Shown here piece after piece: positions 15,427 through 36,453 of a stretch of DNA of 64,000 nucleotides. The first letter of the stretch is position 1. Every line of letters starts with the position of its first letter. Origin of the DNA: Saccostrea cucullata. Its lineage: Eukaryota. Under the pieces are notes generated by a model. That model saw nothing but the letters and a program-made list of their open reading frames with translations, ran no database searches and was not told where the DNA came from. Location of the stretch: positions 1-64,000 of the forward strand of contig NW_026930195.1 in assembly GCF_032062105.1 (NCBI RefSeq), written 5' to 3'. A program made the position numbers and the translations under genes.

Positions 15427-15727
15427 GATTGATTGATTGTGTATATTGTTAAACATCTCTCTCTTGAGAATTTTTCACTCACATGGAGACGCCACCACTT
15501 GCCGGTGGAGAGCTGTAAATTTTGTCATATACTTGGCACTGAGGGTCATTGAGCAGAGAGGGATCTTTTTTCGTGCCAGCACCTACTGCGACACGGGACC
15601 TTGGTTTATACGGTCTTCCGAAGGACCGGTCTCCACGTCCCACAGTGGGATTCGATCCCGGGATGTAAGGATTGACTCCTTTGCGACTCTTGAGCAGACG
15701 CTTTAGCCACTGCGCCACGCGGGCGCC
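15427..15727 (-). mobile_element. tRNA-derived SINE
   Basis: Minus-strand head GCGTGGCGCAGTGGCTAAAGCG (A box) and GGATCGAATCCC (B box); about 300 bp; (CAAT)n tail. Confidence 0.8.
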
Positions 15728-17030
15728 TGTAGACTTCGAAAGATGTATGTTGAGTTTCGAAATCCATTGCTTGGTAATAATATATCATCTCATGCAAAGT
15801 GATCAATAATGCTATGAACACTACGGATAGAAATTTACAGTACAAAATATTAGGCTATAATTCTTTTTGTCCCATATTTATATGGCGAGTATTGACTTTG
15901 GACAATTGCAGGCAATTTTTCTGTATTAATTTGTCCTGCTGATTCCCTATTGATGTATTGTAGATTTATTATACCCACTTTGGACAATTGTTTCAAACAA
16001 GGGATGTAGCAACAGGGGGCCCAGGGGGTCGGGGCTCCCCCCCCCCAGTTTTTTCGAACGTAACTTATCACTGTAGGAAATCTTTATTAAAAGGCACCCC
16101 CAACTTTACAGTTACAGTTAAGGGAAATAAAGGAAATGTATTATTGCATTAAAATAAAATTTGGTGCTAGCTAAAGGTGTGCTTTTATTGTTCAAAAAAT
16201 TAAATAAAAATATCATATACCAATTAAACAAACAATGATATTTCAATAAATATTATTTATGCACCTGGAGCAAGCCCCTGTGCACCAAGATGCCTTTTTT
16301 AACTTCATAAAAAGATTGCTCATGAGGAGAACTTTGTGTGGTAAAAATTGTAAATCATGCTAGTGTAACGTGCGGGACCCGAGCGATCTACCTTGGGCCC
16401 GTACTTGGTTATGTCCAAGTCTTATGAGAACAATATGGAATGCAAAATATACAGATTATAAGAAATGCAATATATACAAATACGGACGACGCTTGCCTAG
16501 TGTCAAGTTGAAGCAATATTTACAAATACAAAGGACACTTGCCTAGTGTATAATTAAACGATATGTACGGAAAACCCTGCCACTTGGTTATACAAACTCC
16601 ACTTGGCTATACCAATGCCGATTGCAACTTGGCTGTACCAACGCCAATTGCCACTTGGCTAAACAAATGCCACTTGGTAACACTATAAACCCTTGGCTAT
16701 CTATATACCACTTCGTACTAACCCGCCAACTGGCTAAGACACCTTCGATATACAATATATCTGTTATACTAATTACTTTCACAGTTGTATTTATTAGCCG
16801 TTCGACTTACAATTGTCACTGACAAATCTTCTTTTACCAACAACTTGGTTGCAAACGTACGACACCGTGACCACTGGCCATTCGCCTACTTATATAATCT
16901 TCGTATCAATGATAATAAGTGCGGGAATACGTATCTGTCATTTTCCGAGCATACCTTGCTCATCTTAACTAAACATTTCTTTTTGTTGTATTTTTATTTA
17001 TAAAACATCCTTTCTTGTAAAACCATTTAA

Positions 17031-17345
17031 GGTCAGACGAGACGTTCCTCAAAATCTGTTTTGTATATCTTCGTAATGTATGAAAAATATTCAAAATTTT
17101 CATAAAATTCTGATTTCTAAAGCAGTTTCTAGACGTTTTTAAAATATCCAAACACTTAAACATTTGAAATTAGAAAATTATTTTCTTCCCCGAAGGATTA
17201 TATAAGAAACACTACCCCTGGTATCTTGCAGAAATGCCTGGTAAGGTACCTCAATTTTTTGTGAGTAAACATGTTTAAGTAGCAACACTTCAATGACAAA
17301 CTCTTAGAAAAATTTATCTATTATTAAGGAACGTCTCGTCTGTCC
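17031..17345. mobile_element. MITE with TTAA TSD (Kolobok-like)
   Basis: TTAA-GGTCAGACGAGACGTTCCT...AGGAACGTCTCGTCTGTCC-TTAA. Confidence 0.85.
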
Positions 17346-18944
17346 TTAATCAAATAACCAGTTAATTATATTATTTACAATTATTTATTGATTGTACAAT
17401 ATGGCACAAGGGAGTTAACTCCCAACTGTTTCACTAGTTTGAACACCTAACCGTCTAAGCAAGCTACTCTAAGTATACATACAGTGTTACGTAGAGATTG
17501 TGTCTGTCACTGTCTGACCTGACGTATGTTTACATTGTCTCTCATCAACGTGTTTTACATGTAATATATATATTTTTATTGCGAAATGTACCGGGGTCGG
17601 GGGAGAGTCAGGGCAGAGGCCTCTTCAGGTGTAATTTTCAAAGCAGAGGAATCTCGGGTTAAATGCATGAAAGCCACAAAATGGAAAGAAATCAAAGTAC
17701 TCAGAAGTACAGAGAGCCGGGCTTATTTACAGAGTAGAATGGATTTCTTACATGAATCATGTTTATATTCTGATGAAAAAATTATTTTAAAACTATCAAT
17801 ATAAATGATAAGACACTGACAGTGAGTTTTTCAATCCTAATACCACAGTCCGATTTTGTCAGAATCAGAATTAATCTGGTACCGCAGCTGAATGTAAACA
17901 AACAGGCCAGTCTGGTTCCCTCTCCTGCTTTACATCGTATGTGTAGAGAACTACGGTAACACTGATTATCAAAAAATCCTTACGCTAATGAACTATGTTC
18001 TTTGACTTATGAAGTTTTCAAAGTCATTACTACTAATGTTTGTTTTATATAGATAAAATTTCGTTTTATTTTTGTTGCTTTATTTAGCGTTTGTATTATC
18101 TCAAAAGCGGTCGAGAGTAAGAAATATATTTTTGCACGTAACTTTAAAATGGCGACTATGGGGTCAACATCCTGCCTTGAACAGGATCACATAAGCCGGC
18201 AATTGCTCTTTGAGCAATAAGCCCGGCTAAAAAGCACAGGGACTTGCTCCCAGCGTGTAATACCAGGTAATTATTTATATAAAAAAAATCATTTAGAGAG
18301 TAATCCTAGGGAAGTAGTTGGGTAGCAAAAATGCTTCAAAATGCAGAAAAAAATCAATATTCACCTTTAAAATTCTTTTATGCATATTATTTGCCCACCG
18401 AATTTCTTTTTAAAATGTTAAATTTAATAAAATATTGACCTTCATTTTTCTATGCTTAATTTGTAAAGTACCATATTTTGATAGTTCCCAGTACTTAGCA
18501 TGACCATTAGCAAGTGTGAAATTAAAATTGAATCGTAAACATTGTTGTTTGAATCTCTAGCATTGCTTTAAAAAATTAAAAACAAATTTAATTATCTCCT
18601 GTATCCCGTTTCCATGACAACCGAGGTTATAATTCAAAAATACTTCTACATTTCACAATCAATCACACATTTGTTTAAAATTATGACAGAAAAAAATCAA
18701 ATCTGTAACTATGCGTTGCCAACCAATTTTGATAATTACGGAGAATTGGTCTTAAAATGCTTATGTACAGAGACTTTAGAGAATAACTTTAGCTCCTTGT
18801 AATGTATAATTTTATTAATGTTATAAGTTCAGTAATATTGCTATGCATCAATTAAGAACAAACATTACTATTGTTAGAGTTCAACACTATTTTTTAATAT
18901 TTACCAAGTCATCATTTCTAGACGAAAATAATCAAATCTGTGAA

Positions 18945-19655
18945 TGAGTGCATGTCAAAAGTGGATTTATTTTCTTTGTTGCTAAGGGGAATTTTCTGTT
19001 GCTATGGCAATAAGTACTTGCAAAATATTCCTGGATTCATAAAGAAGTCTCAGAAATATGTTTTTACTTTAAAAATTGATTTTTGTATCCACCGATAAGA
19101 TTTAATTCCATAAATAACTCGCATATTTGACAATTTGTCTCTTTCTCTTAATCAAAACATCCATTTTTGTTGCTAGGCAACCGATTGTAAATATTAAAAA
19201 ACACACGTTTTTGAATTTAAATTCCAAAAGGGAAATTCCTCTGCTTTTATGTAAAATATACCATACTCTTGTATTGTGCGGGAAGTTTGAGATATATGGC
19301 CTTGAAAATTGCCCAAATTTACAAAAATGCTGAATCAGCAAAAAATGCAAAACATGCATATCTTCCATTGCCCGTAAAAGAAATATCTTAGAATAAAAAT
19401 AGTATGTATTGCATGGTTTTATCACTTGAAATGTTTATATTTATGATAACATTATTTAAGAACCCCTCTGGTAATATTCACATTAAATTTCAAGAAATTG
19501 AGAATATATTTATATAGGGTTTGAATAATTAATTTATTTGGTTCATAAGTTCTCACAACCCGGAGCAAATAATTTTCATTTTACATACGTGGTTCAGCAG
19601 AATACCTATGTGTGTACATCAGATAGATTTGTTGAAGAATCTATAAATGATTATC
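18945..19655. repeat. Right arm of the inverted repeat plus a direct copy of about 10110-10260
   Basis: 18945-19495 is the reverse complement of 10480-11040; 19500-19655 repeats TTTATATAGGGTTTGAATAATT...TCTATAAATGATTAT. Confidence 0.8.
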
Positions 19656-20017: not shown

Positions 20018-20806
20018 ATGGAGAGGAAGAAGCCACGCTCGTCATCATGGTCACGTATTTTATCATGTTTAGTGACAATGATCATGTCTGTAGTAAATGC
20101 ACAATGCGACAATTGTCGCATCGTAGGGAATGTAGCTAATTGCTTAGAGGCTAGGCGAAATTGTGTCTGGATACATACAGATCGTGTGACTGAAGTTCAT
20201 TAGCAGATGCGAGGTCGCGGTCTTATTTTCCCCGCCATTGCTACATGTACCATTGCCCAATATAAGAACAGCATACCACAGATGTGCAATCAGTAAGTAT
20301 GATTGAATATTGTATTGAACAGTGAATGTGTCAATCAGCATTATTGCATTTTGAGATTTCCCATCATTGCATCAAGTGTTTGACCTCGATCTCCTAGCTC
20401 TTGATTTTCATTGGTAGAACCGCGTTAACCTTCACCTTTAGGAAAGGGGGATATTTTCAAAAAGGTTTTTTTTTAACAAGCAAGTGTAGAAATAAATAAA
20501 TGATAAAAAAAATCAACATATTTTTATTTTATAAATTATGAAGACTATTCTGGTATGAGAGAGGATAAATCTAATTATGTCTAGTTGAAAAACAAATAGG
20601 GCATCTTCAAAATGATGATGTGTAAAGTACACAGCAGAATTTTTTTTGCTTAGCTCAGCTCTGACCTGGAATGCCTGGTCTCTTATCAACCCAGAATCAA
20701 CTAATGATAATAAGATCAAAGAAAGGGGAGAAGAATCAATGCCTAAAAATATAGAAACAAGACTTTGTTTTATTAGACAGTTATCTGTTGAACCTTTGTG
20801 TACATA

Positions 20807-20854
<48 letters not shown>

Positions 20855-22341
20855 AAAATAAAAAATATACTAGAAATCATAAAAATATTAGATATATTTA
20901 TGTTATAAAGAAAATAGTAAAAGATCACTATGATTAAATATAAAATATACATAAAGAAATTAATAATTAAGTGGTTTTACATGACCAATATCAGAAATCA
21001 TTATTTGAAAAAAAAAAAAAGAATAAAAAATGAAATCAAGTTGGATGACATATTTACTTTCAATTTTTTAATCTGAAATAGATAAAGAAACAACTACCAA
21101 ATTGAGAACTACCATGGGATTGGGAACAACAACTGAGGAACTCATCACTACCAAAAGTCGGACCATGAGAACAGCATCGACAACTAAGGCGAGACTTGTA
21201 ACACTAACTACCAAAAGTCCGACCATGAGAACAGCATCGACAACTAAGGCGAGACTTGTAACACTAACTACCAAAAGTCCGACCATGAGAACAGCATCGA
21301 CAACTAAGGCGAGACCTGTTACACTAACTACCAAAAGTCCGACCATGAAAACAGAATCGACAACTCAGGCGAGACTTGTAACACTACCTACCAAAAGTCC
21401 AACCATGAGAATAGCATCGACAACTAAGGCGAGACTTGTAACATTAACTACCAAAAGTCCGACCATGAAAACAGCATCGACAACTAAGGCGAGACTTGTA
21501 ACACTTACTACCAAAAGTCCGACCATGAGAACAGCATCGACAACTAAGGCGAGACTTGTAACACTAACTACCAAAAGTCCGACCATGAGAACAGCGTCGA
21601 CAACTAAGGCGAGACTTGTAACACTAACTACCAAAAGTCCGACCATGAGAACAGCATCGACAACTAAGGCGAGACTTGTAACACTAACTACCAAAAGTCC
21701 GACCATGAGAACTGCATGGACAACTGAGGCGAGACTTGTAACACTAACTACCAAAAGTCCGACCATGAGTACAGCTAATAGAGTTAGCGCTGCCTTTGTT
21801 ACTACGCCTGTGTCTAAGGAGGTGACCACATTTGCGTTGAAAGGTATTTCGCATTTTATTATTTATACTATGTGTTTAAACTTTTTCATACAAATAGAAA
21901 GAAGATATGTTTAGGGGAAAAATTTACCTGGAAATGTTTTTGATTCGTAGAATTTATATGAATATATGTAAAATTAAAATGTATATTCAATGTTGAAACA
22001 ATGTAATTAATTTGATGTTTTCAGATATCATGATGTTAACGCTGGAGAGTGTTACTCCTTTTTTGTTGATCATCATTTTAATCATATGGTATGTATGGAA
22101 ATGCGTGTTCAGCAACAAATTAACTGCAACAGCAACTCCCACAACATCTACCTCTTCCACGGAAGCCTCTACCAGTGCAACTACTGCATCTCAAACGGAA
22201 CTGCCAGCTTCTCCCTGTTCTTCATCACTTTCTTATGAAGTTGAAGACCGAGGTGTACAGGTTACACCAACACGCCCTCTTGTAGAAGAAAGAAAACAAC
22301 CTGAGAGGAAGGTTAAGAAGAAGCTTCCATTTAAAGTTTAA
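20018..22341 (+). CDS. Spliced mucin-like type I membrane protein (possibly disrupted; possibly Polinton cargo)
   Basis: Signal-peptide-like N-terminus plus Cys-rich segment from 20018. Thr-rich repeat exon about 21082-21843 is spliced in phase 1 (AAG/GT...TTTTCAG/AT) to exon 22025-22341, which has a TM helix (FLLIIILIIWYVW) and a basic tail. In-frame TAG at 20201 and the first splice phase is unresolved. Confidence 0.6.
20816..20851 (+). repeat. (GA)n microsatellite
   Basis: About 18 GA units. Confidence 0.95.
21148..21772 (+). repeat. Coding 60-bp tandem repeat (TTKSPTMRTASTTKARLVTL, about 10.5 copies)
   Basis: CTACCAAAAGTC recurs exactly every 60 nt, 11 times. Confidence 0.95.
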
Positions 22342-23743
22342 CTGTGGATTGTGTCTCAAATTGCATTAAAAAAAATCTTATACATGTAGGTTGCGGATAT
22401 ATTTGTTTTAACAATATAAAGATAATTTTAAGAGTAAATGAAAGTCTAAGTATCCCTTGTGGATGATATTTGTTTTCTAAGACAATGATGGTATTTTTAA
22501 AAATCATTTTATTTAGATAAGATTTTTTTTTAGCTCAGCATTTTGTGTAAGGGTTTTTTTTTTTGTTTGTATGTGTACATGTACACATCTCCATATTTTT
22601 ATGCAATTTGTTTCAAGAGTAAGTGGAAGTCTTAAGTATCCTGGTAAATGATACTTGTTTTCTATTACAATGGTGGTATTTAAATTTTTTGGTTTTGTTT
22701 ACTAGAGAAGATTTTTTGTTTAGTTTAACATGGTGTGTAGAGGTTTGTTTTTACATACACACATGCACACATTTATTGGCAATTTGGTATAGTGTTATGT
22801 ACAAGTAGCAGTAGTTTTGATTTTTAGTAGTTATTATAACTTTTATTGTTCATTTTTCTTTTGAACAATGCTTTGATTTGTTGTTTTAGGTAATCTTTTT
22901 ACTCATTCAAATCAGTATTATTTTAAATTTATTAATTTCTTGTGGACAAGATTAGAAAAATAAATTCTGAGACTGACTGAAAAGATAAGCTAGGTAAATA
23001 AAGTAAAAACGTAAGATAAAAAAAGAAAAGAAATATCTTCCTATAAACATTCCAATCTGTAGTGTAATATTTAGTGTATTTAATGCTAGTCCCTTATTTT
23101 CTATTCCATCCTCTTTGGTTGTGATTTTTTGTTAAAGAAATAATTTGAAAAATATGCAATTGATATTTTAAAAGATATACATGTTTTTTTGTTTGTTTTT
23201 TTTTTTTCGAGTATAAAAAAAAAAAGAAGTGCCAATAATTTTTGAGATTGATTTTTTTTTTTGTAATTTTCCAAAGTAATTGTATGAACAGTTGTTGTTT
23301 TATACATGAGGTTTTTCATGTAAAATAAAAAGAAAAAAAAAACATAAAAATGCGACATGTTTGTTTAATTGTTCATTCCATTTTTTTTTAAATGGTGCTA
23401 ATCAAACTTTTATATTGTGATATTTTAAAAAAAACACACAAGTGATTGTTTCTGTGTATGATGTTTGTTTTTATCTGTGATTTTTCTTTTTATTTTATTA
23501 TTCTTTTTGTCAGTATTACAAATAAGCAGAGAAACTGCATGTTCCATTCTTTTTTTTTTTAAATAAAGATTTTATATTCCGACAATTGTTATGTTGTTTT
23601 TATCAGGATATTGAGGATTAAAATGGTTTGCAATATGTTATACAACCTTTCTGTTGACTTCAGAGATGAAAAAATTAAATAGCACTTCCTCTTTCATAAA
23701 GCAAGTTTTTAATATTTGTATATTTTTTCCAGAATGATCTACA

Positions 23744-23947
23744 ATGAATACATCCAGGACAAAAGTTCAGTTTAGTGAGATAGTAGTGGAGTATGATATA
23801 TCTCCTGATGAGGATAGGAAAAGTCCCTGGATTCAGATGGCCATTGATCGTGCTCATTTTCAGAGACGTATTAGTTTGTTAAAAGTGAAACTTGAACCTT
23901 TAATGCAGCAAAAGTTAAAACACCTAAAGGACAATGTAAATAAATAA
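23744..23947 (+). CDS. Minimal PPP1R15/GADD34-like (ICP34.5/DP71L-like) PP1 regulatory subunit, 67 aa
   Basis: RVxF motif KVQF, then R.SPW..MA.DR..F.RRI, matching the GADD34 C-terminal pattern KVRF...RQGPWEQLARDRSRFARRI. An in-frame upstream TGA fixes the start. Confidence 0.85.
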   Translation: MNTSRTKVQFSEIVVEYDISPDEDRKSPWIQMAIDRAHFQRRISLLKVKLEPLMQQKLKHLKDNVNK

Positions 23948-23975
23948 TCCAAATATATAAATTTAAGCTTAGAAA

Positions 23976-26900
23976 ATGGAAGGTGAAGGTTCACTTTTAA
24001 AGGAAATCTTAAATTGCTTTGAAAATGAAGAACTTTTGCAATTTTTTGCAAGCTTTCATGGCATTACAGGGGATCCAGATGTTGAACACCGTTTGGAAGA
24101 GCTACGTAGTAATGGAATCCCTCCTAGTGATTTAATAAAGTCATGTATGCATAAAGATGTAGAGGAAAATGGTATTTCATTGTGTAAAAAATTTAAATCA
24201 TGTGAGAGTGAAAGTTGCCACAATTCACTTCAAGTAGGAAGAGGTGAAAACAACTTTCCTTCCACTGATCATGTTAAACCATATTATATATGGAAAAAAG
24301 ACCAGAAAACTTTTAAAAAAAATTTGGCCAAAGACACAACATACAAAATAAAGTTTAATGACAAATGGCGTGGAGAAAAGTTACTAGACATTTACAGTAA
24401 ACTCCACGATATGTTTGATGATGTTTTACAGCAGGCTAGAGGTCACGATGCAGATTTAGGTCGTGTAGTCCTAAGTCACCCAGATTTAATAAACCCTATT
24501 GTAATACCCCTCCAAAGTTGGGAACATTTGAATGCAGACACTGTAATGAATGAGGTTACAAAAGTACTCAACTCAAATGAAGATATAAAAGTAGATGATA
24601 GCTTAATGGTTACAGTTGGATCTATTGATATGCCAAAAGGTGGGGCAAAATTACCAATAACAACATTACTCGGATCAAACAACTCGTTGGAGAGAAAGCA
24701 TTCTACTTTTCATGTTGAAAATGACAACAACAGTTGTCTTGCAATTGCAATTGGGATATGTTTTTTAAAACTATGTGAAAAACTTGACTCTATTAACTGG
24801 AAATCTTTTAAAGAACAGAATACTGGATTATCTAACCTTGAATTAATTATTAAACATCGAAAGGTTTCTCTGAAATTTTACGAGAACATGTTGTTAAAAA
24901 AACGTAAATCAGCTCAGAAAAAGATGGCAACGTTCCTTTGTAAGAAAGCAGGTGTACCCACAAATAGATATTTAGGTTTAAACGACATTCCTATGTTCGA
25001 AAAAATTTTGGATGTAAATATTTTGGTAGTTTCCTCTACTGTAGGTAACAAATTTGTGAGAGTGGTTGAAAATAATGAAAAATCAAATTTATATATATAT
25101 CATGTGGAAAATGGTAAAGAAAAACATTGGCATGGAATCGCAAATATACAAGGGTTTTTCAAAGCTGCATATTTCTGTACGAGGTGTTTAAAACCATATA
25201 AAAGTAGACAAAATCACGTATGCGAAACTACCTGCAATGTGTGTTTGCGGGATAGTTGCTTAGACAGAGGGGGGGCAATGAGTTGTCGTTCGTGTGGTCG
25301 AGTGTGTCGATCGATGGAATGTTTTAGAATTCATAAAAAGAAGAAAACGATCAGAGGTAAAGAGTACCCGAGTCAATGCGATTCTATTTATCAATGCAGA
25401 ACATGTAAAAAAACAATAAAAAATTTGGAAAGAATGCCTGAGAAGCATGTATGTGGTGAGTGGAAATGCACTACATGCTCTCAATACCAAACACATGAAC
25501 ACTTCTGCTTCCAAAGAGGAATGACTGTGGATTTGAAAAAAAGAAATAAAAAATTTATCTTTTATGATTTCGAAACTCGACAAGATGAAACCATACAATG
25601 TGAAAGGGGATTTCGACCATCACCAACAAGATGTAGGAAATGTGTTGGTCATGAATATCAATGTAGTGATTGTCGACTCTGTAAGAATTGCCGCGAACCC
25701 CCCTGCGGTCTCTCACAACATAAAGTAAATTTTGCAGTTTTACAAAAAACTTGTTATAAATGTGAGAATGTTCCACTAACACCCGAATCAACATGCGCTA
25801 ACTGTGGAACACGTTGTAAAAATTGTTCGAAGAGTGTGAAAAATTCGTTTGTAAACCCACCATGTGATAACAAATGCGGAAAACGAGAAATTGTGTTTGA
25901 GGGGGATGATACCGCAGAACAGTTTTGTTCTTATATCACACAAGAGCACAATGCCGGTTCAATTTTAATTGCCCATAATGCAAAAAGTTTTGATTTATAT
26001 CCTGTTTTGGAAGTTCTGATTGATCGTCACTCAATAAGACCTGATAAAATTATTTACAATGGTTCGAAAATTATGTATATGCACGTGGGAAGAAAACTTA
26101 ATTTAACATTTCTAGACTCATTGAATTTTCTGCCAATGAAATTGGCCAAAATACCTGAGACATTTGGATTAAATGAATTGTGCAAGGGGTATTTTCCTCA
26201 TTTGTTTAACACTCGTGAAAATCAAAATTATATTGGTTCTTATCCTGATCCCCTTTATTTCGGTGTTGAATCGATGCAAGCATCAGAGAGAAAAAGATTC
26301 ATGGAATGGTATGAAACCAAAAAAGAACATGAAATATTCAATTTTAAAAAGGAGATGTTGAAGTATTGTAGATCGGATGTTGACATTTTACGTCGTGGTT
26401 GTTTGGAATTTAGACGAATCATGATTAAGGTTACACAGAAAAAAACTGTGGACAGAAAAGACGACGGTACATTGAAAATATCAACAACTCTTGGTGTTGA
26501 TCCATTTGACCATGTTACAATTGCTAGTGTTTGTATGGCTATCTATAAAACTCTTTTTCTGGAGGAGGAAATCGAAATAGAAATTAAAATGTCTGACTCA
26601 ACCAATCCAATATCCAAATGGTATAAAGTTTTCACTGATGGGAATCAATCCAAATTCATAGAAATTGGGGATAGTAAATTTTCCTTGGATGTAATTAGTA
26701 AAGACCCTAACTTTCAAGTTGGTCAAACACGATTTCTTAAAAGCCCAATAGCAGCTGTTCCTTCTACTGGATATGTTGCTAGAGATAATTACAGTAAGAT
26801 TTCCATACAATGGCTAGAATGGGTTATGGAAAAAAGTCGTTTAAACGGCATACCCCTTCATATACGCCATGCACTTAATGGAGGAGAAGTTCACATACCA

Positions 26901-28666
26901 AGTACAAACTACAGATGTGATGGTTTTTCGGACTATACAAAAATACAAACAAAGAAAGGGACGATATACGAATTTTATGGTAAAGTATTTTACCTTATTT
27001 TGTTACATAATTGATAACATTAAATAATAATGAAATTATAAGTTTTCACTCATTTTTTTTTGTAGGTTGTGTATTTCATGGCTGTCCTAGCTGCTATCCA
27101 GATGATAGAAGCACCCTGAAACATTCATCGACAGGGCAATCAATGGAAGAATTATACACCATTACTAAGAAACGAGAAAAGGAATTAAGGGCATTAGGGT
27201 ACATTATAGTTTCAATTTGGGAGCATGACTTTTTGAAACAATTGAAAACGAACAAGGTTTTGAAAGAATACGTTGCAAATCTAGATATTCAAGATAGACT
27301 TAACCCTCGAGAAAGTTTCTTTGGAGGGCGCACAAACGCAATTAAACTTCATTACAAAGCAAAAGATGATGAAAAAATTCATTACTATGACTTTACCAGT
27401 CTGTATCCTTGGACTAACAAGTATAGTAAATATCCCATTGGACACCCCGAAATTTTAACAGACGACTTCAAAGACTTATCCCAGTATTTTGGATTAGCAA
27501 AAGTTAAAGTATTACCACCAAAAGGATTATATCATCCAGTCCTACCCTACAATTCAAATGGCAAGCTGAAGTTTCCTCTGTGTAAAAAGTGTGCAGATGA
27601 AGAAAACCAGGATACATGTACATGTTCTATTGACGAAAGGTGTATTATCGGAACGTGGTGTACCCCAGAATTAGAACTAGCAATTTCAAAGGGATATGAA
27701 GTTTTAAAAATTTATGAAATATACCATTTTAAGGATGCTACACAGTATGACAGATTTTCTGGTCAAGGCGGGCTCTTCTCTCCGTATGTTAACATGTTTC
27801 TTAAAATAAAGCAAGAGTCGTCTGGTTTTCCATCGGGATGCATTTCATTAGAAGATAAACTTGAATATATTCGTCAGTACGAAGAAAATGAGGGCATTCA
27901 ATTAGAATATCATAACGTAAAGAAAAATCCAGGTTTACGCTGTTTAGCAAAGTTATGCCTTAACAGTTTCTGGGGAAAATTTGGACAAAGATTGTTGATG
28001 CGACAGTCAGAATTTATTCACGAATCGGAAGCAGAAAAGTTTTTTAAACTTTTGTCTGACGTTCGAAAAAATGTGAATAATTTTCATATAATCTCAAATG
28101 ACACAGTGCAACTAGAATGGATAGAAGATCCCTTGTTTCCAGGAGTTGATAACAAGACCAACATTTTCTTGGCGTCGTTTACGACCATGTGGGCACGATT
28201 GAAATTATACAGTGTTCTGGACATACTTGGAGAAGATGTCTTATACTTTGACACAGATAGTATAATCTTTAAATCCAAAATTTCTGACGATCTTCGTCGA
28301 CTGCCCATTGGAAACTACCTAGGTGAACTTACGAATGAAATAAAACCCCAAGATGGATTTATCACAGAGTTTGTATCGGGTGGACCAAAAAACTACGCTT
28401 ACAGGACATTGTCAGGAAGAGAAGAATGTAAAGTTCGAGGATTTACCTTGAATTGGAAAAACTCGAAACTTATAAACTTTGATGCTATTAAAAGTATGAT
28501 TTGTACCGGACAAAACGACTCTGTGACAATTACGAACCCATGTAAGATATCCAGAGACAGTCGAAAAAGAAAACTTTTCAACCGAATCGAAGAGAAGAAA
28601 TACCAAATGGTTTATACCAAGCGTAAAATCTTAAGTAATCTGGACACACTTCCATATGGATATTAA
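23976..28666 (+). CDS. polB: Protein-primed family B DNA polymerase, join(23976..26979,27066..28666), 1534 aa
   Basis: Exonuclease motifs FYDFET, AHNAKSFD, YCRSDV; polymerase motifs YDFTSLYP, KLCLNSFWGKFG, YFDTDS. An 86-nt GT-AG intron restores YEFYG/CVFHGC. Confidence 0.95.
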
Positions 28667-28845
28667 CTATATACAAGTGATTAAGATAATCAATGTTTTA
28701 TTCAATAATTGATTAAAATAATGTTTCATTTCTTCACGCTTTTAAAATAAAAATATTGAACACACAATATCGTTTTCATTTATAAAAAATAAAAAAAAAA
28801 GAAAGAAGAGTTTTGTCGCATTCATTCATTGTAGAATTTAAACTG

Positions 28846-29151
28846 TCAGTATTTTATCCAATTAATACTTCTTATTCTGTCAATAGTACTAGTCCTCCTT
28901 CTTCTGGTGATTTCACGGATACCCGGTGGACATCCTTTGATTTGTTTTGGCGTAAATGTCTGTAATTTCTGCGTGCAAGTATCTTCCTCTTGATCATGTA
29001 TGTCAACATTTTCGTTTAAATCCATTTTATTCTCAGATGTATGTTTTAGAGAATCACATTCACTCATCTCTTTTTCCTGGCTATTATCTGTATCCAATTT
29101 GATAATTTTTTGGTACTTTTGTTTGGGGATAAGAATTAATTCCCTAGCCAT
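28846..29151 (-). CDS. Polinton hypothetical protein, 101 aa
   Basis: ATG ORF overlapping the upstream gene by 8 nt; acidic middle, Arg-rich end. Confidence 0.65.
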   Translation of the reverse strand: MARELILIPKQKYQKIIKLDTDNSQEKEMSECDSLKHTSENKMDLNENVDIHDQEEDTCTQKLQTFTPKQIKGCPPGIREITRRRRTSTIDRIRSINWIKY

Positions 29152-29473
29152 TTCGATCTAATCTATCAAAATATTTCACGACTGGATTTAAAATCCAGAC
29201 TAAAAGCTTAGGATTTTTTAACAAAATTGCACGTTTTCGTTTAGACGTTACTTCTTTTGAGCCAAGAAGACGAATGAATGAACTAAAAGGTTTCAAAATT
29301 TTTATGTATCTTCCGTGTAATGGAAAAGATCCTGTATATATGTTCATTGCTATTTCGCTAATAGCATGTAATTGCTGCTCTGTAAGTGTTTTGATAATTG
29401 CCCGCTGTTGATTGAGATCAGCACGAGTGAAAAATCTAAGAAATAATAATTCCCTCCGTATTTGTCGAGTCAT
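29144..29473 (-). CDS. Small basic helical Polinton protein, 109 aa
   Basis: AIIKTLTEQQLHAISEIAMNIYTG resembles the small conserved ORFs next to Polinton ATPases. Confidence 0.75.
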   Translation of the reverse strand: MTRQIRRELLFLRFFTRADLNQQRAIIKTLTEQQLHAISEIAMNIYTGSFPLHGRYIKILKPFSSFIRLLGSKEVTSKRKRAILLKNPKLLVWILNPVVKYFDRLDRNG

Positions 29474-29511
29474 TGTTCCGAAATACTAGATTTTCAAATT
29501 GTAAATCCTTT

Positions 29512-30195
29512 TTAAATAGGTTGATAAATTGTGACATCTTCATTAGGAAGTATATGTGATCTTAGCTGATAATTTTTATCCTGATTTGGTTCTAAGCAGA
29601 TATGTAAATATCCATATTTTTCACGCGTAGCAGATTCATATGCCGATTTAAAATAGATTGAATTTCCCGGAAAAAGTTGAGAACCTAATGTAATGACCTG
29701 ACGACAGTCTCTATAGTTCTTAAATAAAATTACATTGAGGCAGTTTAATGAAATCGTTCGAGCATATTTTCCTGGAGGATAAAGATTTTGAGTCAGAAAT
29801 ATTACACTGATATTACGATGATGGCTAGTAACAGTAAAAAGCTGTACACATTCCTTCGATTCTGCAATTTTTATCATAAGGTCATCCAAAACTAATATTG
29901 TATGATTCGATTCTTCTGAAAATAGCTCGATGTCTTCATTAGAAGGAAGGCCTTTGTGAAACGTTATTTCAGGTATAGTTTTTTTCATCTCATCAAAGAT
30001 TTCTTGATATTCAGAATATGCATAAACTATCTTTTGTGCTGGCCGTATAAACATTCCATATGCACATTCTAATAATTGCTTTGTAAAGTACGTTTTTCCA
30101 CTCTGAGTACTACCACTTATTAAGATGGTAGTTGGTACTGAAAATGGAATCAAAGCCTCTTTTTGCCACCAATTAACAGTAGATACCTGCTCCAT
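29512..30195 (-). CDS. FtsK/A32-like genome packaging ATPase
   Basis: Walker A GSTQSGKT, Walker B ILVLDD, SHHRNISVIFLTQN. Confidence 0.95.
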   Translation of the reverse strand: MEQVSTVNWWQKEALIPFSVPTTILISGSTQSGKTYFTKQLLECAYGMFIRPAQKIVYAYSEYQEIFDEMKKTIPEITFHKGLPSNEDIELFSEESNHTILVLDDLMIKIAESKECVQLFTVTSHHRNISVIFLTQNLYPPGKYARTISLNCLNVILFKNYRDCRQVITLGSQLFPGNSIYFKSAYESATREKYGYLHICLEPNQDKNYQLRSHILPNEDVTIYQPI

Positions 30196-30302
30196 GTTAC
30201 CACTAAAGCAGTAAATAATAAACTACAAATTATTTGTTCCGTCCATCTATTTTATTTAAAAAAAAGAAATTAATATTTCTACTAAACAGACTATATTATA
30301 AT

Positions 30303-30764
30303 TTACCTAAGATATCTGAGCATAAACTTATATACATACATGTCATTCATATGTAAATCATTCGTAAAACTAATGTACACATTTAAAAAAGACTTCTTGA
30401 AATACAATCTCATTATCAAAAAATATAACACATACAATCCACAAAAATCTGATCCTCTGGACTGAATCCTTTGTTTGTTAAAGGTTACTTTGCTACTATT
30501 CCTTTGCAAAAAACTTGCAATATCTCGATTTTGAGACGGAGATTGTCCAAGACTATCAAAATACTCAGCATCAGAAGCATTGCGAATAATGATGGCAACC
30601 CAGTGTTTACCCGGTAGCGGTAAAGGTTCAGTGTTAACAATAAAAGCACTTGGATATTGAGAAACCTTATTTGGTAAGGTATTACATGCAAACACACCCT
30701 GTACAAAATTATCAAAAAGATTATTATTATTTTTAATAATATTTTGCAACTGTAACGTATTCAT
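30303..30764 (-). CDS. Adenain-like (C5) cysteine maturation protease
   Basis: Catalytic motifs GKHWVA, YFDSLG and IQ....DFCGLY are intact. Confidence 0.95.
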   Translation of the reverse strand: MNTLQLQNIIKNNNNLFDNFVQGVFACNTLPNKVSQYPSAFIVNTEPLPLPGKHWVAIIIRNASDAEYFDSLGQSPSQNRDIASFLQRNSSKVTFNKQRIQSRGSDFCGLYVLYFLIMRLYFKKSFLNVYISFTNDLHMNDMYVYKFMLRYLR

Positions 30765-32077
30765 GGTTGAATGTAGTTGATATCACGAGCTTTGTTAATT
30801 TCAAGCAAGGCTGAGTAAGTTGAAAATACCACGGCGTTTAAGGCTTCTGTAGTAGCAGTCTTAAATTTCAGCTCTACTCTAGTATTTCCACGACGTATCA
30901 AGTTTATATACTCTTCTCCAAATCCACAAGGATTGATAGTAAACACGTAAAATGCATAACCTTTCCCAAAGTCTTCTCTGTCTATGTATAAGCCTGTATC
31001 TTTGTTCCACTTTCCACAAGGTTCAAATAATCGCGCATAGGCTGAAGCATAGTTTCCAGCTTCGAAGTCCAATTTTAATGGTCTACCGGGTATACTTTCA
31101 CCGTTAATATAAACACCCACATCTGTTATTGCATACGGTGCAAAATTGAATGGATTGGCTGAGTAGTCTCCATTAACAGCACTTTGAGACAATAGACCAA
31201 TTATTATACGATCAGGTACAGCCTGTGGGAATATATTGTCCCAGTAAAATTCCGTAGATCCTTTCGGTATGGTATTCATCTTCACTTCGTTTCTTGGTAA
31301 AATATATTTGGCTGGGGTAGATTCTATCTGTTTACTGTGATTGATTAATACTCCAGGATCAACTCTCACTTTTGCAACTTTATACACAACATCTAAAAGT
31401 TCTAGTTTGTAAGCAGGGGATGCCTCCGCAGACATGATAATAAATGGTATGCATGATCGGAATAATTTCATGTAAATATCTACACCATTGATAAGGTACT
31501 TATCAAGGTCAAATATATCTTCCATTAAGCTTCCTTCCATTTCAAAAACATTGCTTTTCTGTGTATAAGAATATCTTTCGACTAAGCCTGCATTTCCGCC
31601 ATTATATGCATTTGGATCTGCTAAATTCCCTTCGTCTTTTGTAAACAACTGCGATTGTTTCTGAGATAACAATTCATCTCGACCGCTAAATAATACGGTT
31701 TTCATATAAGCTTTCCAAGGGTAGTTGGTAGTATTCAGAGATATTAATTTGTTATTCAAATAAATATCCATCTGGGAGAAGATGCTTTGTAAAGGCAAAT
31801 TTATTATTCCGGTTTTTTCAGCCGCAGCCAAAGCTTGACCATCAGCTTTTATAATCCTAGCTTTAACATACAGTTTACTTTTCCTGAGATCAATATATTC
31901 AGCTCCTGCTCCAGACACAACAATTTCAATTGGAGTATCTGAGGCACTTATATTAGAAATCGGTCTTGCTTCCGTATAATAAACCTTTTCAACTGCAACC
32001 TGATTGGATGGGGAGGCAAAAAGGGAAAGTTCCATAGGCTGAGCAATCTCTTGGTTTTCACTGCTAAGGAATGACAT
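30761..32077 (-). CDS. Double jelly-roll major capsid protein (PY/hexon-like)
   Basis: 438 aa, beta-rich; ELSLF..P..Q, EYIDL..S.LY, P..IIIGL, NPFNF and FGKGYAFY.F motifs typical of Polinton MCP. Confidence 0.9.
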   Translation of the reverse strand: MSFLSSENQEIAQPMELSLFASPSNQVAVEKVYYTEARPISNISASDTPIEIVVSGAGAEYIDLRKSKLYVKARIIKADGQALAAAEKTGIINLPLQSIFSQMDIYLNNKLISLNTTNYPWKAYMKTVLFSGRDELLSQKQSQLFTKDEGNLADPNAYNGGNAGLVERYSYTQKSNVFEMEGSLMEDIFDLDKYLINGVDIYMKLFRSCIPFIIMSAEASPAYKLELLDVVYKVAKVRVDPGVLINHSKQIESTPAKYILPRNEVKMNTIPKGSTEFYWDNIFPQAVPDRIIIGLLSQSAVNGDYSANPFNFAPYAITDVGVYINGESIPGRPLKLDFEAGNYASAYARLFEPCGKWNKDTGLYIDREDFGKGYAFYVFTINPCGFGEEYINLIRRGNTRVELKFKTATTEALNAVVFSTYSALLEINKARDINYIQP

Positions 32078-32089
32078 TTTTTTTCTAAA

Positions 32090-32626
32090 TTATTTTTTGA
32101 AGATGGTCCTGAAACTGTCAATTTTAAATTCCCTCTTTTTTGAAGTTGTATTTTTTCTTTTTAATTTTCCAACATTAGTTATTTTCTTTTTCTTCGTTAT
32201 TTCCTTCTTTTTCGGTGATTTTTTCCGATTCAATCTTAAAGTCTTGATTTGCTTAATGTAAGTTTGCTGTGATTTTTTCAAAGGTACGCTCTTCTTGGTC
32301 TTCTTTATTGAAGTGAAATTGATATCACCGAGGTGCCTTTTTATACCCTTTTCCAATTCAACATGTGGATTTCCCTCTTGAACATCCTTTTCATGTTCTG
32401 AGATAGCTCGTTCTTCGACGGAAGCTAAAGGAGTTACCAGCTTAGTTGTTTCAGGGTTTTCAAACTGTGCATGTGGCTTTACAGGAATTGAATACGACTT
32501 CTTAATATTACTACCTCTCCCTGTCTGTTTTGGTTTGTACATATAAGGATTGAATTTCTTTTCAGCCATATTTTTATAGAAAGTCTCCCAAAGTTTAGGA
32601 TCGCTTACGTATGTTTGACTATTCAT
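32090..32626 (-). CDS. Lys-rich putative core/DNA-condensing protein
   Basis: Very basic C-terminal half; N-terminal W..FY..M...QTGRG motif; lies between the two capsid genes. Confidence 0.75.
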   Translation of the reverse strand: MNSQTYVSDPKLWETFYKNMAEKKFNPYMYKPKQTGRGSNIKKSYSIPVKPHAQFENPETTKLVTPLASVEERAISEHEKDVQEGNPHVELEKGIKRHLGDINFTSIKKTKKSVPLKKSQQTYIKQIKTLRLNRKKSPKKKEITKKKKITNVGKLKRKNTTSKKREFKIDSFRTIFKK

Positions 32627-33051
32627 TATAAAACAAATGGAATTTTTTTCAGGTGAAGCGTTATGGTCACTGGAGCGTCAAAAAAAGAAATGAGATTTCC
32701 AGCTCTGTCAGTGAGTTTTATACTAATTTGCTGAATTTGGGTATTTTTTATAGGTACATAATATGGTGAAGTATATATAATATTATCTTCTTTTCTATCT
32801 CCCAGGAAAATTCTTCTTAATAATTGCATTTCATTACCTCCTATAAATGTTTCCTCACAAATGTCACAACAAACATATATTTCTGATTTCTTTTGAGATG
32901 GAATCCAGCTTTTTGTAGAAAATTCAGTTAAACCTATCACCCAATAGCCATCAAATTGTATCTGCTTATTAAATTGAGCCCTAAAGCACTGAGGCCTATT
33001 ATCAAAATATTCTGTACTGTCTGTTGATGCTAACACCATCCGTAGACTCAT
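32626..33051 (-). CDS. Single jelly-roll minor capsid protein (PX/penton-like)
   Basis: S..YF.N....F, GYWVIGLTE, IYVCCDI, LLRRI, YVP, I.I.LTD..G and TLHLK motifs. Confidence 0.85.
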   Translation of the reverse strand: MSLRMVLASTDSTEYFDNRPQCFRAQFNKQIQFDGYWVIGLTEFSTKSWIPSQKKSEIYVCCDICEETFIGGNEMQLLRRIFLGDRKEDNIIYTSPYYVPIKNTQIQQISIKLTDRAGNLISFFDAPVTITLHLKKIPFVL

Positions 33052-33093
33052 GTTGAATGGAAGAAATCCATTTGAACACTTTAATTTATTTAT

Positions 33094-34218
33094 TTATTTA
33101 TAATTTTCAATTGATCTCTCAGGTAACCAAGAGTTAAACTTCTTTGGCCACCCTTCCCATTTAACCAAGACCTCAGTCTGCCCGTTTCTTTTCCTTTTTT
33201 GAAGCACTTTTTCTATGCGATAGAGAATATCGTCAGGTTTTTGAATTTTTTGCAGCTCATACTGATAAAATGTTCCCTGGATTGGGTCATCCATAAGATC
33301 ATTCAGCTTATAAATAGGTATTTTCCCTCGCAAATAACGTTTCACCACTTTGAAATATTCCTCTGACCATTTTTGCTGATAGTCTCTTTGAAATGCACGT
33401 TTCAGTTGTGTCATTCTTACATTATCACCTATTTTGAATTTAAATATTGTTTGTTTTTTCTTTCCTTTGCGCTTTGGATCATTATTTTGTTTTCCTTGTG
33501 CTAAATACACAGATAATCTAGTTTCGTCTGCATTTTCGGGTTTTACGGAGGCTGGACTTAGTCCACCGAGAGATCTGTGGGGTCGTTCATTGTAACTTTC
33601 TACAAGTTTTTGTAAAATTTCTACGTATCGATAGGTTTGGTTTTTAAAAAAATACCGATACATCATATTTTTTATTGTTCGTATTACTCTCTCCGCATAA
33701 TTAGCTTTTGTTTCATTTTGAGTATATATTATATTCACATTTTCTTTCACTAGATATGACTTGACCCATCGATTCTTAAACTCACTTCCCTTGTCACTTC
33801 TTAGAACTTGGGGTTTTCGACCATATTTAAATATTTTCTTCAACCCATCTATGATATTTTGATGATGTTTTGATTTCAATGGAATAATGAATAAAAATCT
33901 ACTAAATATATCAATTAAAACTAGTAAGAATCTAAATCCATCGTTTTCTGACGCAATGTTGCCAACATCGGCCAAATCACCATCCCACATAGAATCGATA
34001 GTGTCGACAATAACTTTTGAACGATGAAATTTCCTTCTGATTGGTTTAAACAAACTGTATGCGTCTTCATTATTGAGAAACTGTTTGATTTTTCCTCTAC
34101 CGAGTTTATATTTTCCTTCCTTCTTAACAATTTGATACAGTTTGTCCGGCCCTGAAAAAGCAGCAGGACTACCAGGATGAAAATATATTTTCTTTAGGTA
34201 GTCTTTATAGGTTGACAT
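33094..34218 (-). CDS. Retroviral-like (rve) integrase with C-terminal chromodomain
   Basis: DDE triad GDLAD / RSDKGSEF / AERVIRT; chromodomain YRIEKVL...VLVKWEGWPKKFNSW. Confidence 0.95.
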   Translation of the reverse strand: MSTYKDYLKKIYFHPGSPAAFSGPDKLYQIVKKEGKYKLGRGKIKQFLNNEDAYSLFKPIRRKFHRSKVIVDTIDSMWDGDLADVGNIASENDGFRFLLVLIDIFSRFLFIIPLKSKHHQNIIDGLKKIFKYGRKPQVLRSDKGSEFKNRWVKSYLVKENVNIIYTQNETKANYAERVIRTIKNMMYRYFFKNQTYRYVEILQKLVESYNERPHRSLGGLSPASVKPENADETRLSVYLAQGKQNNDPKRKGKKKQTIFKFKIGDNVRMTQLKRAFQRDYQQKWSEEYFKVVKRYLRGKIPIYKLNDLMDDPIQGTFYQYELQKIQKPDDILYRIEKVLQKRKRNGQTEVLVKWEGWPKKFNSWLPERSIENYK

Positions 34219-34546
34219 ATCTTTTCAAGTGTGTAATATGTTTGATATATTGCTCATTTTATATCATTTTTTTAGCAACAAAAAAAAAAAAAAAACAAAA
34301 CAAAACAAAATAAACCTTACATTCATTTTATTTTTAAAAGATCGCATATTCTCAAACATGTAATGAATAAAATATATTTTAAAAGATTTAATTTTTTTTA
34401 AATATATTTTTAATTATGCATACATAAATATGATTTAATATTGTATAGATTAAAATCAAATACAAAATACAAAGTGTGCAAAAGATATACATATAAAATA
34501 TTATCTCTCTATATATAAATTGTCATTCCGATAGAAATGTCACTTT

Positions 34547-35107: not shown

Positions 35108-36118
35108 TCAAAAGTCAAATCCAATGCAAATGTCCTCTTTTTCAGAGTCGTTGTCATCAATATTGAGGGATGATATCTCCTGTTCAGAATCGTCTGCGTT
35201 ACATTCCATTGAAAGAGATTTCGATTCTTTTGGAAAGGGGGTGCATTCTGGGCATGAAAGCATTCCCTCTTGGTTCTGATGGGATTCACTAAACATACAA
35301 AGTTCTACATTGTTTAGTTCAGGGACATAATCATGAAGCTCTTGTAAAGCAGCTTTTAATCGAGCAAACATTGTCTTGTTAAGACATACTCCTTTCTTGG
35401 TAGGTATTGGACTTTCAACGCTCTCTGGTTTCCAATAATGTCTTACATCAACTGTAGCAAACTTTGGTGTTAAGGAAACAAATACACCTCCTCCAATATG
35501 CCATTGTATTTCCGCAGACTGTCTCCAGTAAGTTTGGAGATAGGTGTCAATCTCCTCAATTAATGATTCAAATTTCACCCAGCGCCCTAGGTTAAACGTG
35601 GCTCCTCTTTTTGATGGGAACATTCCTCCATTATTCTCTATGAAATGACGTAAATGGATAATAATATCACCTCTGTAAACTGTGGCCGTCAGGAAAACGT
35701 TATTTTTTTCATCCAAATTTATCTTACATCTTGTTTCTGTTTGCTCTTTTCTTTGATGCGGAGTGTTTGTTCCTTTTTTGACATCAATTATTAGTGATCG
35801 AGCTGAAGCTAACTTCTTTTCGTATTCTGTCAATGTGCTGTCGTCATAATCATTCAGTAGGAGTTTTGATAAATTAAGATGCCCCGATTTCATAAGTGCC
35901 TTGTGCAAACCTGTGAAAGCTTTGGGTCCTCTCCGTAAAATGATGCTTATCAATTTTCTATTTTGTTCGTTGTTAGTTCTCTGTGAGCTTATGGTTTCTC
36001 TCATGTCTTCTGTAATAATCCCGTCTTCATAGAGTCGCTGTGCCACCCAAGTTGCAGTCATATTTTTTACCAGAAGTGAGTAGTTTTTTTTAATGATTTC
36101 TTTGTGCTTGTCATCCAT
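35108..36118 (-). CDS. CARD-PC4-PC4 fusion with C-terminal C/H/CxxC motif
   Basis: Residues 1-87 fit a CARD (L...GIIT.DM.E.I....T..EQ.RKL..I..RRGPKAF..L..AL...G...L..LL). Two PC4-like units (IHLRHF...PSKRG..F....W and VDVRHYW...PTKKGVCL); CMFSESHQNQEG...CPEC. Confidence 0.85.
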   Translation of the reverse strand: MDDKHKEIIKKNYSLLVKNMTATWVAQRLYEDGIITEDMRETISSQRTNNEQNRKLISIILRRGPKAFTGLHKALMKSGHLNLSKLLLNDYDDSTLTEYEKKLASARSLIIDVKKGTNTPHQRKEQTETRCKINLDEKNNVFLTATVYRGDIIIHLRHFIENNGGMFPSKRGATFNLGRWVKFESLIEEIDTYLQTYWRQSAEIQWHIGGGVFVSLTPKFATVDVRHYWKPESVESPIPTKKGVCLNKTMFARLKAALQELHDYVPELNNVELCMFSESHQNQEGMLSCPECTPFPKESKSLSMECNADDSEQEISSLNIDDNDSEKEDICIGFDF

Positions 36119-36189: not shown

Positions 36190-36453
36190 TAGTAGGTCAG
36201 GTCATCTAAATAGGTCATGTATCCTGAGGAAAAAGGTCGACCTAATAATTCGCAATTGAGGTCATGACCTGATTCATTATTTGACCTGACCTACTTAAGT
36301 GACCTAAGCCTCCGTGTTTTGACCTACTTAGGTGCCTATGACCTCGGTGACTAGTGTTGACCTGACCTACTTTGGTGACCTTGACCTCAGTGACCTGACC
36401 TTGACCTCATTTTGGCTTTAGAAAAGTGAGTGTCAGGTATACCCTATGCTGCT
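36190..36453. promoter_or_regulatory. Polinton right terminal region with a TGACCT/AGGTCA array
   Basis: More than a dozen TGACCT/AGGTCA hexamers; terminus reads 5'-AGCAGCATAGGG on the minus strand. Confidence 0.7.

What the first reader, a model, noticed from the sequence alone, without database searches (positions are those of the whole stretch)
23744..23947. Polinton-borne minimal GADD34/ICP34.5/DP71L mimic directly upstream of the DNA polymerase
Seen: an intronless 67-aa ORF 28 nt before pPolB, with KVQF followed by DRKSPWIQMAIDRAHFQRRI. Known: the RVxF + PW...A.DR..F.RRI module is the PP1- and eIF2alpha-binding core of PPP1R15A/B, captured by HSV (ICP34.5) and ASFV (DP71L, similar length) to reverse translational shut-off by PKR/PERK. 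Inferred: this Polinton encodes an antagonist of the integrated stress response, a function expected of an actively replicating virus rather than a passive transposon. I know of no description of this in Polintons but could not search.
Basis: partly seen in the sequence, partly recalled or inferred. Interest (0 to 1): 0.92.

Follow-up and report, generated by a model that had tools for sequence, protein, structure and literature searches.

The report
Polinton-borne stress-response phosphatase adaptor gene
A virus-like Polinton transposon in an animal genome carries a tiny conserved gene resembling the proteins that herpes, pox and African swine fever viruses use to switch protein synthesis back on in stressed cells, but with one substrate-contacting residue changed and no sign of expression in the data checked.

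Summary
Observation confirmed. The 67-aa ORF (23744-23947, +) ends 28 nt before pPolB. It matches Pfam PP1c_bdg above the cut-off (E 2e-10) and solved PPP1R15B and DP71L chains. It lies in a real Polinton with pPolB, integrase, ATPase, protease and both capsid genes. The right TIR is in the window; a matching left end with the same 6-bp flank is on another contig. The genome gives 76 matches in three element contexts. The pPolB-upstream position is subfamily-specific (4 of the top 30 loci); 16 of 30 sit beside a CARD-PC4 gene. The core is under purifying selection like core viral genes. PP1- and actin-contact residues are kept, and so are DP71L's two critical hydrophobic positions. However, the Arg591 equivalent, a main eIF2alpha contact, is His here and in 73 of 113 relatives, while the host's eIF2alpha pocket and own PPP1R15 are canonical. 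Best reading (about 0.65): a minimal PP1/G-actin adaptor that dephosphorylates eIF2alpha. Main rival: a PP1 decoy or retargeting subunit. Four RNA runs gave no evidence of expression, so 'actively replicating virus' is not shown. Ten paper searches found no description in Polintons.

The parts
23744..23947 (+). 67-aa minimal PPP1R15-like ORF (PP1c_bdg)
23762..23773 (+). RVxF motif KVQF (PP1 docking; PPP1R15A 555-558)
   Evidence: role from PMC10743859 and PMC5346070 passages
23816..23872 (+). R25..W29..D35..F39..R41R42I43: PP1 Arg-pocket, Trp switch and actin/eIF2alpha helix; H38 (23855-23857) stands at the Arg591 position
   Evidence: helix 28-66 in the AlphaFold2 model, mean pLDDT 85.4
23734..23775 (+). 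13-codon out-of-frame upstream ORF overlapping the start; an overlapping one is also in L004, none in L002; significance unknown
23976..28666 (+). protein-primed PolB in two parts, separated by a GT..AG intron-like segment at 26980-27065
29512..30195 (-). A32-like packaging ATPase
   Evidence: Pox_A32 E 5e-4, below cut-off
30303..30764 (-). adenain-like cysteine protease
   Evidence: Peptidase_C5 and C48 above cut-off
30761..32077 (-). probable major capsid protein (double jelly roll)
   Evidence: DJR-like, weak, E 0.065; position in the module and 153 genome matches; label partly from recalled Polinton anatomy
32626..33051 (-). probable minor capsid protein
   Evidence: conserved beside the integrase in relatives; label recalled, no informative Pfam hit
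33094..34218 (-). rve integrase with chromodomain
35108..36118 (-). CARD + two PC4 domains accessory gene; the usual neighbour of the PP1c_bdg gene in related elements
36265..36453 (-). right terminal inverted repeat ending at 36453, flanked by CAAAAG; identical over 190 bp to an element end on C2006 that has the same 6-bp flank
20018..22341 (+). left-arm, probably spliced mucin-like membrane protein gene (signal/Cys piece, 60-bp repeats, transmembrane piece), syntenic in sister elements; shows the ORF is inside the element
   Evidence: exon structure inferred
9173..10262 (+). left-arm segment of the same Polinton, 89% identical to a sister on C6105 and separated from the rest by a nested 9.2-kb element

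Best explanation
The ORF is an accessory gene of a Polinton lineage, captured long ago from an animal PPP1R15 gene (directly or through another virus) and cut down to the ~60-residue core. The protein docks on host PP1 through KVQF, E16-Y17 and R25. Its helix (W29 onward) binds G-actin through F39, R42 and I43 and presents D35, H38 and R41 to eIF2alpha. The result would be a holophosphatase that removes Ser51 phosphate and keeps the element's mRNAs translated in a stressed cell, as DP71L does. Shown: homology, motif conservation, Polinton location, selection. Inferred: PP1 binding (very likely), actin binding (likely), eIF2alpha-P dephosphorylation with an Ala-His pair in place of the usual x-Arg (likely, unproven), expression during element activation (not seen).
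For: Pfam and PDB matches. Residue map keeps the equivalents of R578, W582, D588, F592, R594, R595, I596 and DP71L L57/L61 as L50/M54. DP71L also lacks Arg at the 587 position (Val) and suppresses the stress response with only this core (bioRxiv 2025.02.28.640897 section 8). pS > pN in 66 of 66 non-independent pairs among 12 copies; against the syntenic C6359 element the core has pN 0.17, pS 0.67, like the ATPase at 0.16/0.64. Polinton relatives with Arg at the 591 position exist (38 of 113 clusters), in the same element contexts and tree group as His forms. Host eIF2alpha contact residues, PP1 genes and actin genes are present. Actin co-fold: weak support, score 0.48 against best control 0.17, at least 31% contact agreement, partner pLDDT at least 55; that mark was reached by 51 of 78 solved and 2 of 108 mismatched pairs, passes at 0.60 or under are more often wrong than right unless likely beforehand, and a like complex is solved, so it shows likeness only.
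Against: H38 replaces Arg591, which is buried between eIF2alpha Met44 and Tyr81 and salt-bridges Asp83; R591A is among the strongest loss-of-function changes (PMC8500838 passages). The host pocket is unchanged and the host's own PPP1R15 keeps Arg, so this is not adaptation to a changed substrate. One study holds that the C-terminal 70 residues alone have marginal, unselective activity and that substrate capture needs the middle region, absent here (PMC8633803 passages). The linker has PPP1R15B length, which bound PP1 less well than DP71L's. No expression: two poly(A) runs laid 11 and 43 reads on 14.5 kb, depth 0 and 0.14 in the ORF's bin; two metatranscriptome contig sets were patchy to flat, included intergenic DNA and showed no joint at the pPolB intron.
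Confidence: 0.65

Rival explanations
1. PP1/actin-binding decoy or retargeting subunit: the His-type proteins still occupy PP1 (and perhaps actin) but no longer act mainly on eIF2alpha. They either compete with host PPP1R15 and prolong the stress response, or steer PP1 to another host or element substrate.
For: The substrate-facing pair is Ala-His in 68 of 113 clusters against Cys-Arg 17 and Tyr-Arg 15, and His is kept through both codons (CAT 14, CAC 4 among distinct loci), so it is selected rather than decayed. A DP71L mutant that binds PP1 without dephosphorylating gave the highest eIF2alpha-P ratio among the mutants (PMC5346070 passage).
Against: All other eIF2alpha- and actin-facing positions (W29, D35, F39, R41, R42) stay conserved, which a pure PP1 sink would not need. 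His and Arg forms occupy the same gene slot in related elements. PKR fills the same eIF2alpha cleft with Phe, so a ring side chain can fit there (extension to His is inference).
Confidence: 0.22
2. Same biochemistry, but serving an intragenomic transposon (germ-line or stress-triggered self-synthesis) rather than an infectious virus; the gene then says nothing about virions.
For: All copies seen are integrated or of unknown state; no expression or particle evidence. Purifying selection between copies arises under transposition too (general knowledge). Seven of 10 further capsid-bearing elements lacked the gene in the ~20 kb fetched.
Against: Capsid, protease and ATPase genes are intact and constrained. 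Every characterised minimal PPP1R15 mimic I read of is viral. CARD-PC4 and mucin-like membrane genes also look like host-interaction cargo (inference).
Confidence: 0.4
3. A recently captured host fragment or passenger with no function for the element (retrocopy or last-exon capture from this host's PPP1R15).
For: The host gene has an intron inside its RVxF codons and acceptor-like sequence precedes the ORF. The AU test did not formally reject grouping this subfamily with the host gene (p 0.054).
Against: Only 33% identity over 46 aa to the host's last exon. The ORF encodes the Lys that the host has on the other side of the intron. Synonymous sites near saturation with low pN. Eighteen element-borne sequences form one side of a branch against 7 cellular and other viral ones (92/96, not starred, 58 columns).
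Confidence: 0.03

Closest known systems
ASFV DP71L (PDB 9nb9)
   Same: Stand-alone ~70-aa protein made only of PP1- and eIF2alpha/actin-binding motifs; E 6.7e-6; RVxF, R, W, D, F, RRI and the L57/L61 positions shared.
   Different: Carried by an integrated Polinton, not a large cytoplasmic DNA virus; His in place of Arg at the 591 position; linker one residue longer; function untested.
Cellular PPP1R15A/GADD34 and PPP1R15B/CReP, including this host's single PPP1R15 (C21801, C18042)
   Same: Same C-terminal core; best PDB hit PPP1R15B, ungapped over residues 3-44, E 2.3e-8; 55% over 42 aa to a bird PPP1R15B.
   Different: Lacks the 500+ N-terminal residues, the ER-targeting and middle substrate-binding regions; no intron; 33% to the host's last exon.
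Other viral mimics: HSV ICP34.5, canarypox CNPV231, iridovirus MyD116-like proteins
   Same: Independent viral captures of the same core (PMC13712846 passage; a poxvirus-like locus L070 and a 70-aa homologue in L071; weak fold hits).
   Different: These fall outside the Polinton group in the tree; L070, L071 and DP71L keep the Arg.
Polintons/Mavericks (adintoviruses, polintoviruses)
   Same: pPolB, integrase, ATPase, protease, capsid genes, TIRs, 6-bp target duplication (PMC8097293 passages).
   Different: Accessory genes named in the papers read (Oncoid, PLA2X, GasderminX, cupiennin, Bcl2, IAP, VLTF3) include no PPP1R15 mimic; pPolB here has an intron-like break, whereas intact vertebrate elements have none.

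Membership tests
PPP1R15 / PP1c_bdg (PF10488) | Profile match above the curated cut-off | tested here: met
   41.1 bits against 26.1
PPP1R15 / PP1c_bdg (PF10488) | RVxF motif, phi-phi positions and Arg-pocket residue for PP1 | tested here: met
   KVQF, E16-Y17 as in PPP1R15B, R25
PPP1R15 / PP1c_bdg (PF10488) | Invariant Trp and actin-contact residues (W582, F592, R595, I596) on a helix | tested here: met
   W29, F39, R42, I43; helix 28-66
PPP1R15 / PP1c_bdg (PF10488) | eIF2alpha-facing residues R587, D588, R591, R594 | tested here: inconclusive
   D35 and R41 kept; 587 is Ile (Val in DP71L); 591 is His, a departure
Viral eIF2alpha-phosphatase adaptors (DP71L, ICP34.5, CNPV231) | Binds PP1 and lowers eIF2alpha-P in cells | not testable with these tools
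   Needs bench work; a PP1 or eIF2alpha co-fold was not run
Viral eIF2alpha-phosphatase adaptors (DP71L, ICP34.5, CNPV231) | Expressed during replication | tested here: inconclusive
   No transcript evidence in 4 runs; the element's other genes were also near silent in the poly(A) runs
Polinton/Maverick | pPolB and retroviral-type integrase | tested here: met
Polinton/Maverick | Packaging ATPase, protease, major and minor capsid genes | tested here: met
   Protease above cut-off; ATPase and capsid hits weak, supported by conserved order in relatives
Polinton/Maverick | TIRs with AG..CT ends and 6-bp target-site duplication | tested here: met
   Sister C6359 has both TIRs and a GACACC duplication around the gene. 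For the window's copy the left end is on another contig with the matching CAAAAG flank; the physical join is inferred, and the target is a tandem repeat
Polinton/Maverick | Virion formation | not testable with these tools
   No data

The most novel reading that the evidence does not exclude
Polintons of aquatic animals are true viruses that fight host translational shut-off. One ancient PPP1R15 capture spread and moved between gene slots across deeply diverged Polinton families, and the dominant Ala-His form is a new way of engaging eIF2alpha, or a PP1 subunit with a new target. It would be the first stress-response antagonist in this group and a handle for catching Polintons in their replicative phase.
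Probability: 0.4. Interest if true: 0.85.

Novelty: new variant of a known kind. Interest (0 to 1): 0.7.

Why it matters
Whether animal Polintons are transposons or viruses with an active phase is a long-open question. A selected, widespread antagonist of the eIF2alpha stress response predicts where to look: cells with eIF2alpha-P high, with this gene expressed early. It also adds a large natural set of 60-85-aa PPP1R15 cores (148 clusters) that differ at a key substrate contact, useful for the unresolved question of how PP1 holoenzymes select eIF2alpha and for work on minimal stress-response suppressors such as DP71L.

Tried and rejected
Single-sequence word search found nothing; the profile search did. 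The 'longer' search gave only 2 proteins among 7998 scored and is weak evidence on fused forms. PHROGs gave one weak unrelated hit and phage records none. Foldseek on viral structures: no match at E <= 0.001; the top hits were an iridovirus MyD116-like protein and a herpesvirus ICP34.5 at E 0.18 and 1.0. No left TIR in the window. An upstream coding exon was considered and rejected: the acceptor-like sites fall in three different phases in L001, L002 and L004 and the window's frame has a stop just behind it. Stress-gated uORF control was considered: not conserved in L002. Metatranscriptome coverage was rejected as evidence of expression: it includes intergenic stretches and an unspliced intron, and no silent control stretch was laid. 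The idea that the gene is universally linked to pPolB was rejected. Rojas 2015 (PMC4500263) is not held, so its motif definition was not seen. Host taxon and host eIF2alpha kinases were not tested; a PKR-like kinase is reported for the Pacific oyster (PMC4883820 passages), which may or may not be relevant. Earlier scan findings: none on this gene.

Full report
Observation. The ORF is as described: 23744-23947, + strand, 67 aa, 28 nt before the pPolB start. It matches Pfam PF10488 at 41.1 bits (cut-off 26.1) and the solved chains of PPP1R15B (E 2.3e-8, ungapped over residues 3-44), DP71L (E 6.7e-6) and, weakly, PPP1R15A. A composite motif occurs once in the window and never in 100 shuffled windows. 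AlphaFold2 gives an extended N-terminus and a helix over residues 28-66, mean pLDDT 85.4, the layout known for the PPP1R15 core.

The element. Downstream lie pPolB, an A32-like ATPase, an adenain-like protease, probable major and minor capsid genes, an rve-chromodomain integrase and a CARD-PC4 gene. The right end is at 36453. Nine places in the genome match the terminal 28-mer, 8 exactly. Two of them (C2006, C11242) have the flank CAAAAG that also follows the window's end, and C2006 is identical over 190 bp, which fits a young insertion with a 6-bp duplication. The join across contigs is inferred, and the target is a 34-bp tandem repeat. The left arm is interrupted by a 9.2-kb element with ~550-bp inverted ends (10359-19596) and by part of a second, distant Polinton ending at 9172. 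The sister on C6359 has both TIRs and a GACACC duplication around the homologous gene, so the gene lies inside the element.

Distribution. The own genome gives 76 matches among 150 scored of 243 candidates. Of the top 30 loci, 4 have pPolB directly downstream and 16 a CARD-PC4 gene; 10 show no window Polinton gene within 1.5 kb. Larger stretches tie several of those 10 to a distant, high-copy family with a 31%-identical capsid gene, where the domain ends an overlapping reading frame; C905 and C18781 remained without Polinton context in what was fetched. Of 10 further capsid-bearing elements picked from the 153 matches, 3 carried the gene within the ~20 kb fetched, all close relatives and all beside CARD-PC4; 7 did not, and for several the fetch may not cover both arms. 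So the gene is patchy and has changed position. Outside this genome, a profile search gave 148 clusters, 120 listed, all without an informative name. Metagenome contigs gave 7 loci; one (L076) shows the gene in a full Polinton module and another (L075) beside CARD-PC4 and integrase. Viral contigs gave 2 loci, one poxvirus-like and one of another large DNA virus by my reading. The host range is not established.

Selection and origin. Among 12 copies chosen to span subfamilies, pS exceeds pN in 66 of 66 pairs (medians 0.77 and 0.36); the pairs are not independent and the copies were found by protein similarity. The synteny-chosen comparison with C6359 avoids that bias: ORF core pN 0.17, pS 0.67; ATPase 0.16/0.64; ORF tail 0.47/0.82. 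The host's own PPP1R15 (C21801 and C18042) has a ~550-codon exon and an intron inside its RVxF codons, and is 33% identical over 46 aa. In a 25-row, 58-column tree the 18 element-borne sequences form one side of a branch (92/96, not starred); grouping this subfamily with the host gene is disfavoured but not rejected (p-AU 0.054). An earlier 39-row tree gave weaker support (82/77) and dropped 6 rows that my motif filter missed. One old capture is favoured, not shown.

Mechanism. Mapping on PPP1R15A (roles from passages of PMC10743859 and PMC8500838): RVxF, R578, W582, D588, F592, R594, R595 and I596 are all kept, and DP71L's L57/L61 (PMC5346070 passages) correspond to L50/M54. Position 587 is Ile, but DP71L has Val there. 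The departure is position 591. Arg591 sits between eIF2alpha Met44 and Tyr81 and pairs with Asp83, and its loss strongly weakens the enzyme; here it is His. His is found in 73 of 113 clusters with the motif (7 of 120 lacked my pattern), Arg in 38. It covaries with the preceding residue (Ala-His 68) and is coded by both His codons. The host's eIF2alpha exons keep Y32, M44, the Ser51 loop, K79, Y81 and D83 (numbering from the motifs), and the host's PPP1R15 keeps Arg. The His form is thus a selected variant, not decay and not a match to a changed substrate. A co-fold with a host actin exon gave weak support: 0.48 against best control 0.17, at least 31% contact agreement, partner pLDDT at least 55. 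The mark was reached by 51 of 78 solved and 2 of 108 mismatched pairs, passes at 0.60 or under are more often wrong than right unless likely beforehand, and a like complex is already solved. I put an eIF2alpha phosphatase adaptor at 0.65 and a decoy or retargeting role at 0.22. PMC8633803 (passages) argues that the bare core is only marginally active, whereas DP71L works with the core alone (bioRxiv 2025.02.28.640897, section 8).

Expression. Four runs were laid on 21950-36400. Two poly(A) runs gave 11 and 43 reads, with depth 0 and 0.14 in the ORF's bin. Two metatranscriptome contig sets covered 30 and 25 of 30 bins, intergenic parts included, one contig ran unspliced through the pPolB intron, and no silent control was laid. 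This looks like DNA. One contig spans the ORF with no difference inside it. There is no evidence of transcription, and none for an active virus beyond intact, constrained virion genes.

Prior knowledge. Paper searches: Polinton+GADD34 0; Maverick+transposon+ICP34.5 0; Polinton+integrated stress response 0; Polinton+phosphatase 1, 3 listings, unrelated by title and abstract. Broader searches listed 30 of 59, 40 of 241, 15 of 24 and 40 of 94 papers, none joining the two topics in the listed counts; two searches were for background. Read further: PMC8502044 (passages, section 3.2, one supplement searched without hits), PMC11131425 (passages, one section, a supplement of only 4,040 characters), PMC8097293 (passages, one supplement), PMC11161782 (term search, 0), PMC13712846 and PMC4883820 (passages). 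Limits: most subscription papers and Repbase are not searched; Rojas 2015 is not held; the 391-protein table of the DP71L preprint could not be seen. The ESM Atlas holds a 71-aa cluster with PF10488 in 29% of members and one member labelled Preplasmiviricota, so such a protein is probably already deposited as 'hypothetical'.

Verdict. Real, conserved and inside a Polinton. It works most likely like DP71L and belongs to the PPP1R15 core family by profile and by PP1/actin residues; the eIF2alpha test is inconclusive. New variant of a known kind: a known viral trick in a carrier where I found it undescribed, with a conserved change at a key contact. Interest 0.7.

Noticed in passing
window 26980-27065: pPolB is split by a GT..AG intron-like segment; an intron-like segment ending before the same downstream codons is in C6359, C21451, C11954 and metagenome locus L076. 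Intact vertebrate Mavericks are reported intronless.
   Followed up: partly
window 35108-36118 (-): CARD + two PC4 domains gene, conserved in close relatives; distant relatives match only the PC4 part. Possible apoptosis or immune modulator.
   Followed up: partly
window 20018-22341 (+): Probably spliced mucin-like type I membrane protein gene with subfamily-specific tandem repeats, syntenic in C6359, C18125 and C22890.
   Followed up: partly
window 10359-19596: A 9.2-kb element with ~550-bp inverted ends (96-97% complementary), nested in the Polinton's left arm; not identified.
   Followed up: no
window 279-9172: Part of a second, distant Polinton family (AGTAGT end at 9172, zinc-knuckle gene pieces, 346-bp tandem array, TTAGGG-like runs) nested in the first.
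   Followed up: partly
L046/L047 (C17250), L084-L092, L072-L074: In the distant high-copy family the PP1-binding domain ends a 167-188-codon frame that overlaps a more conserved 135-158-aa ORF; neighbours include a zinc knuckle and a 166-aa protein that looks macrodomain-like from recall (no Pfam hit).
   Followed up: partly
G000:C18125 395753-419599 and C22890: The two ends of the C18125 element are of different TIR subtypes with no target duplication, while its right flank matches C22890's left flank; a chimera or mis-assembly is possible.
   Followed up: no
P0002: A 3428-aa protein with 25 stretches matching residues 5-38 of the query; not examined.
   Followed up: no
window 36453-36752 and 42113-42412: A 100% identical 300-bp repeat beside 34-bp tandem arrays, right of the insertion site.
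   Followed up: no
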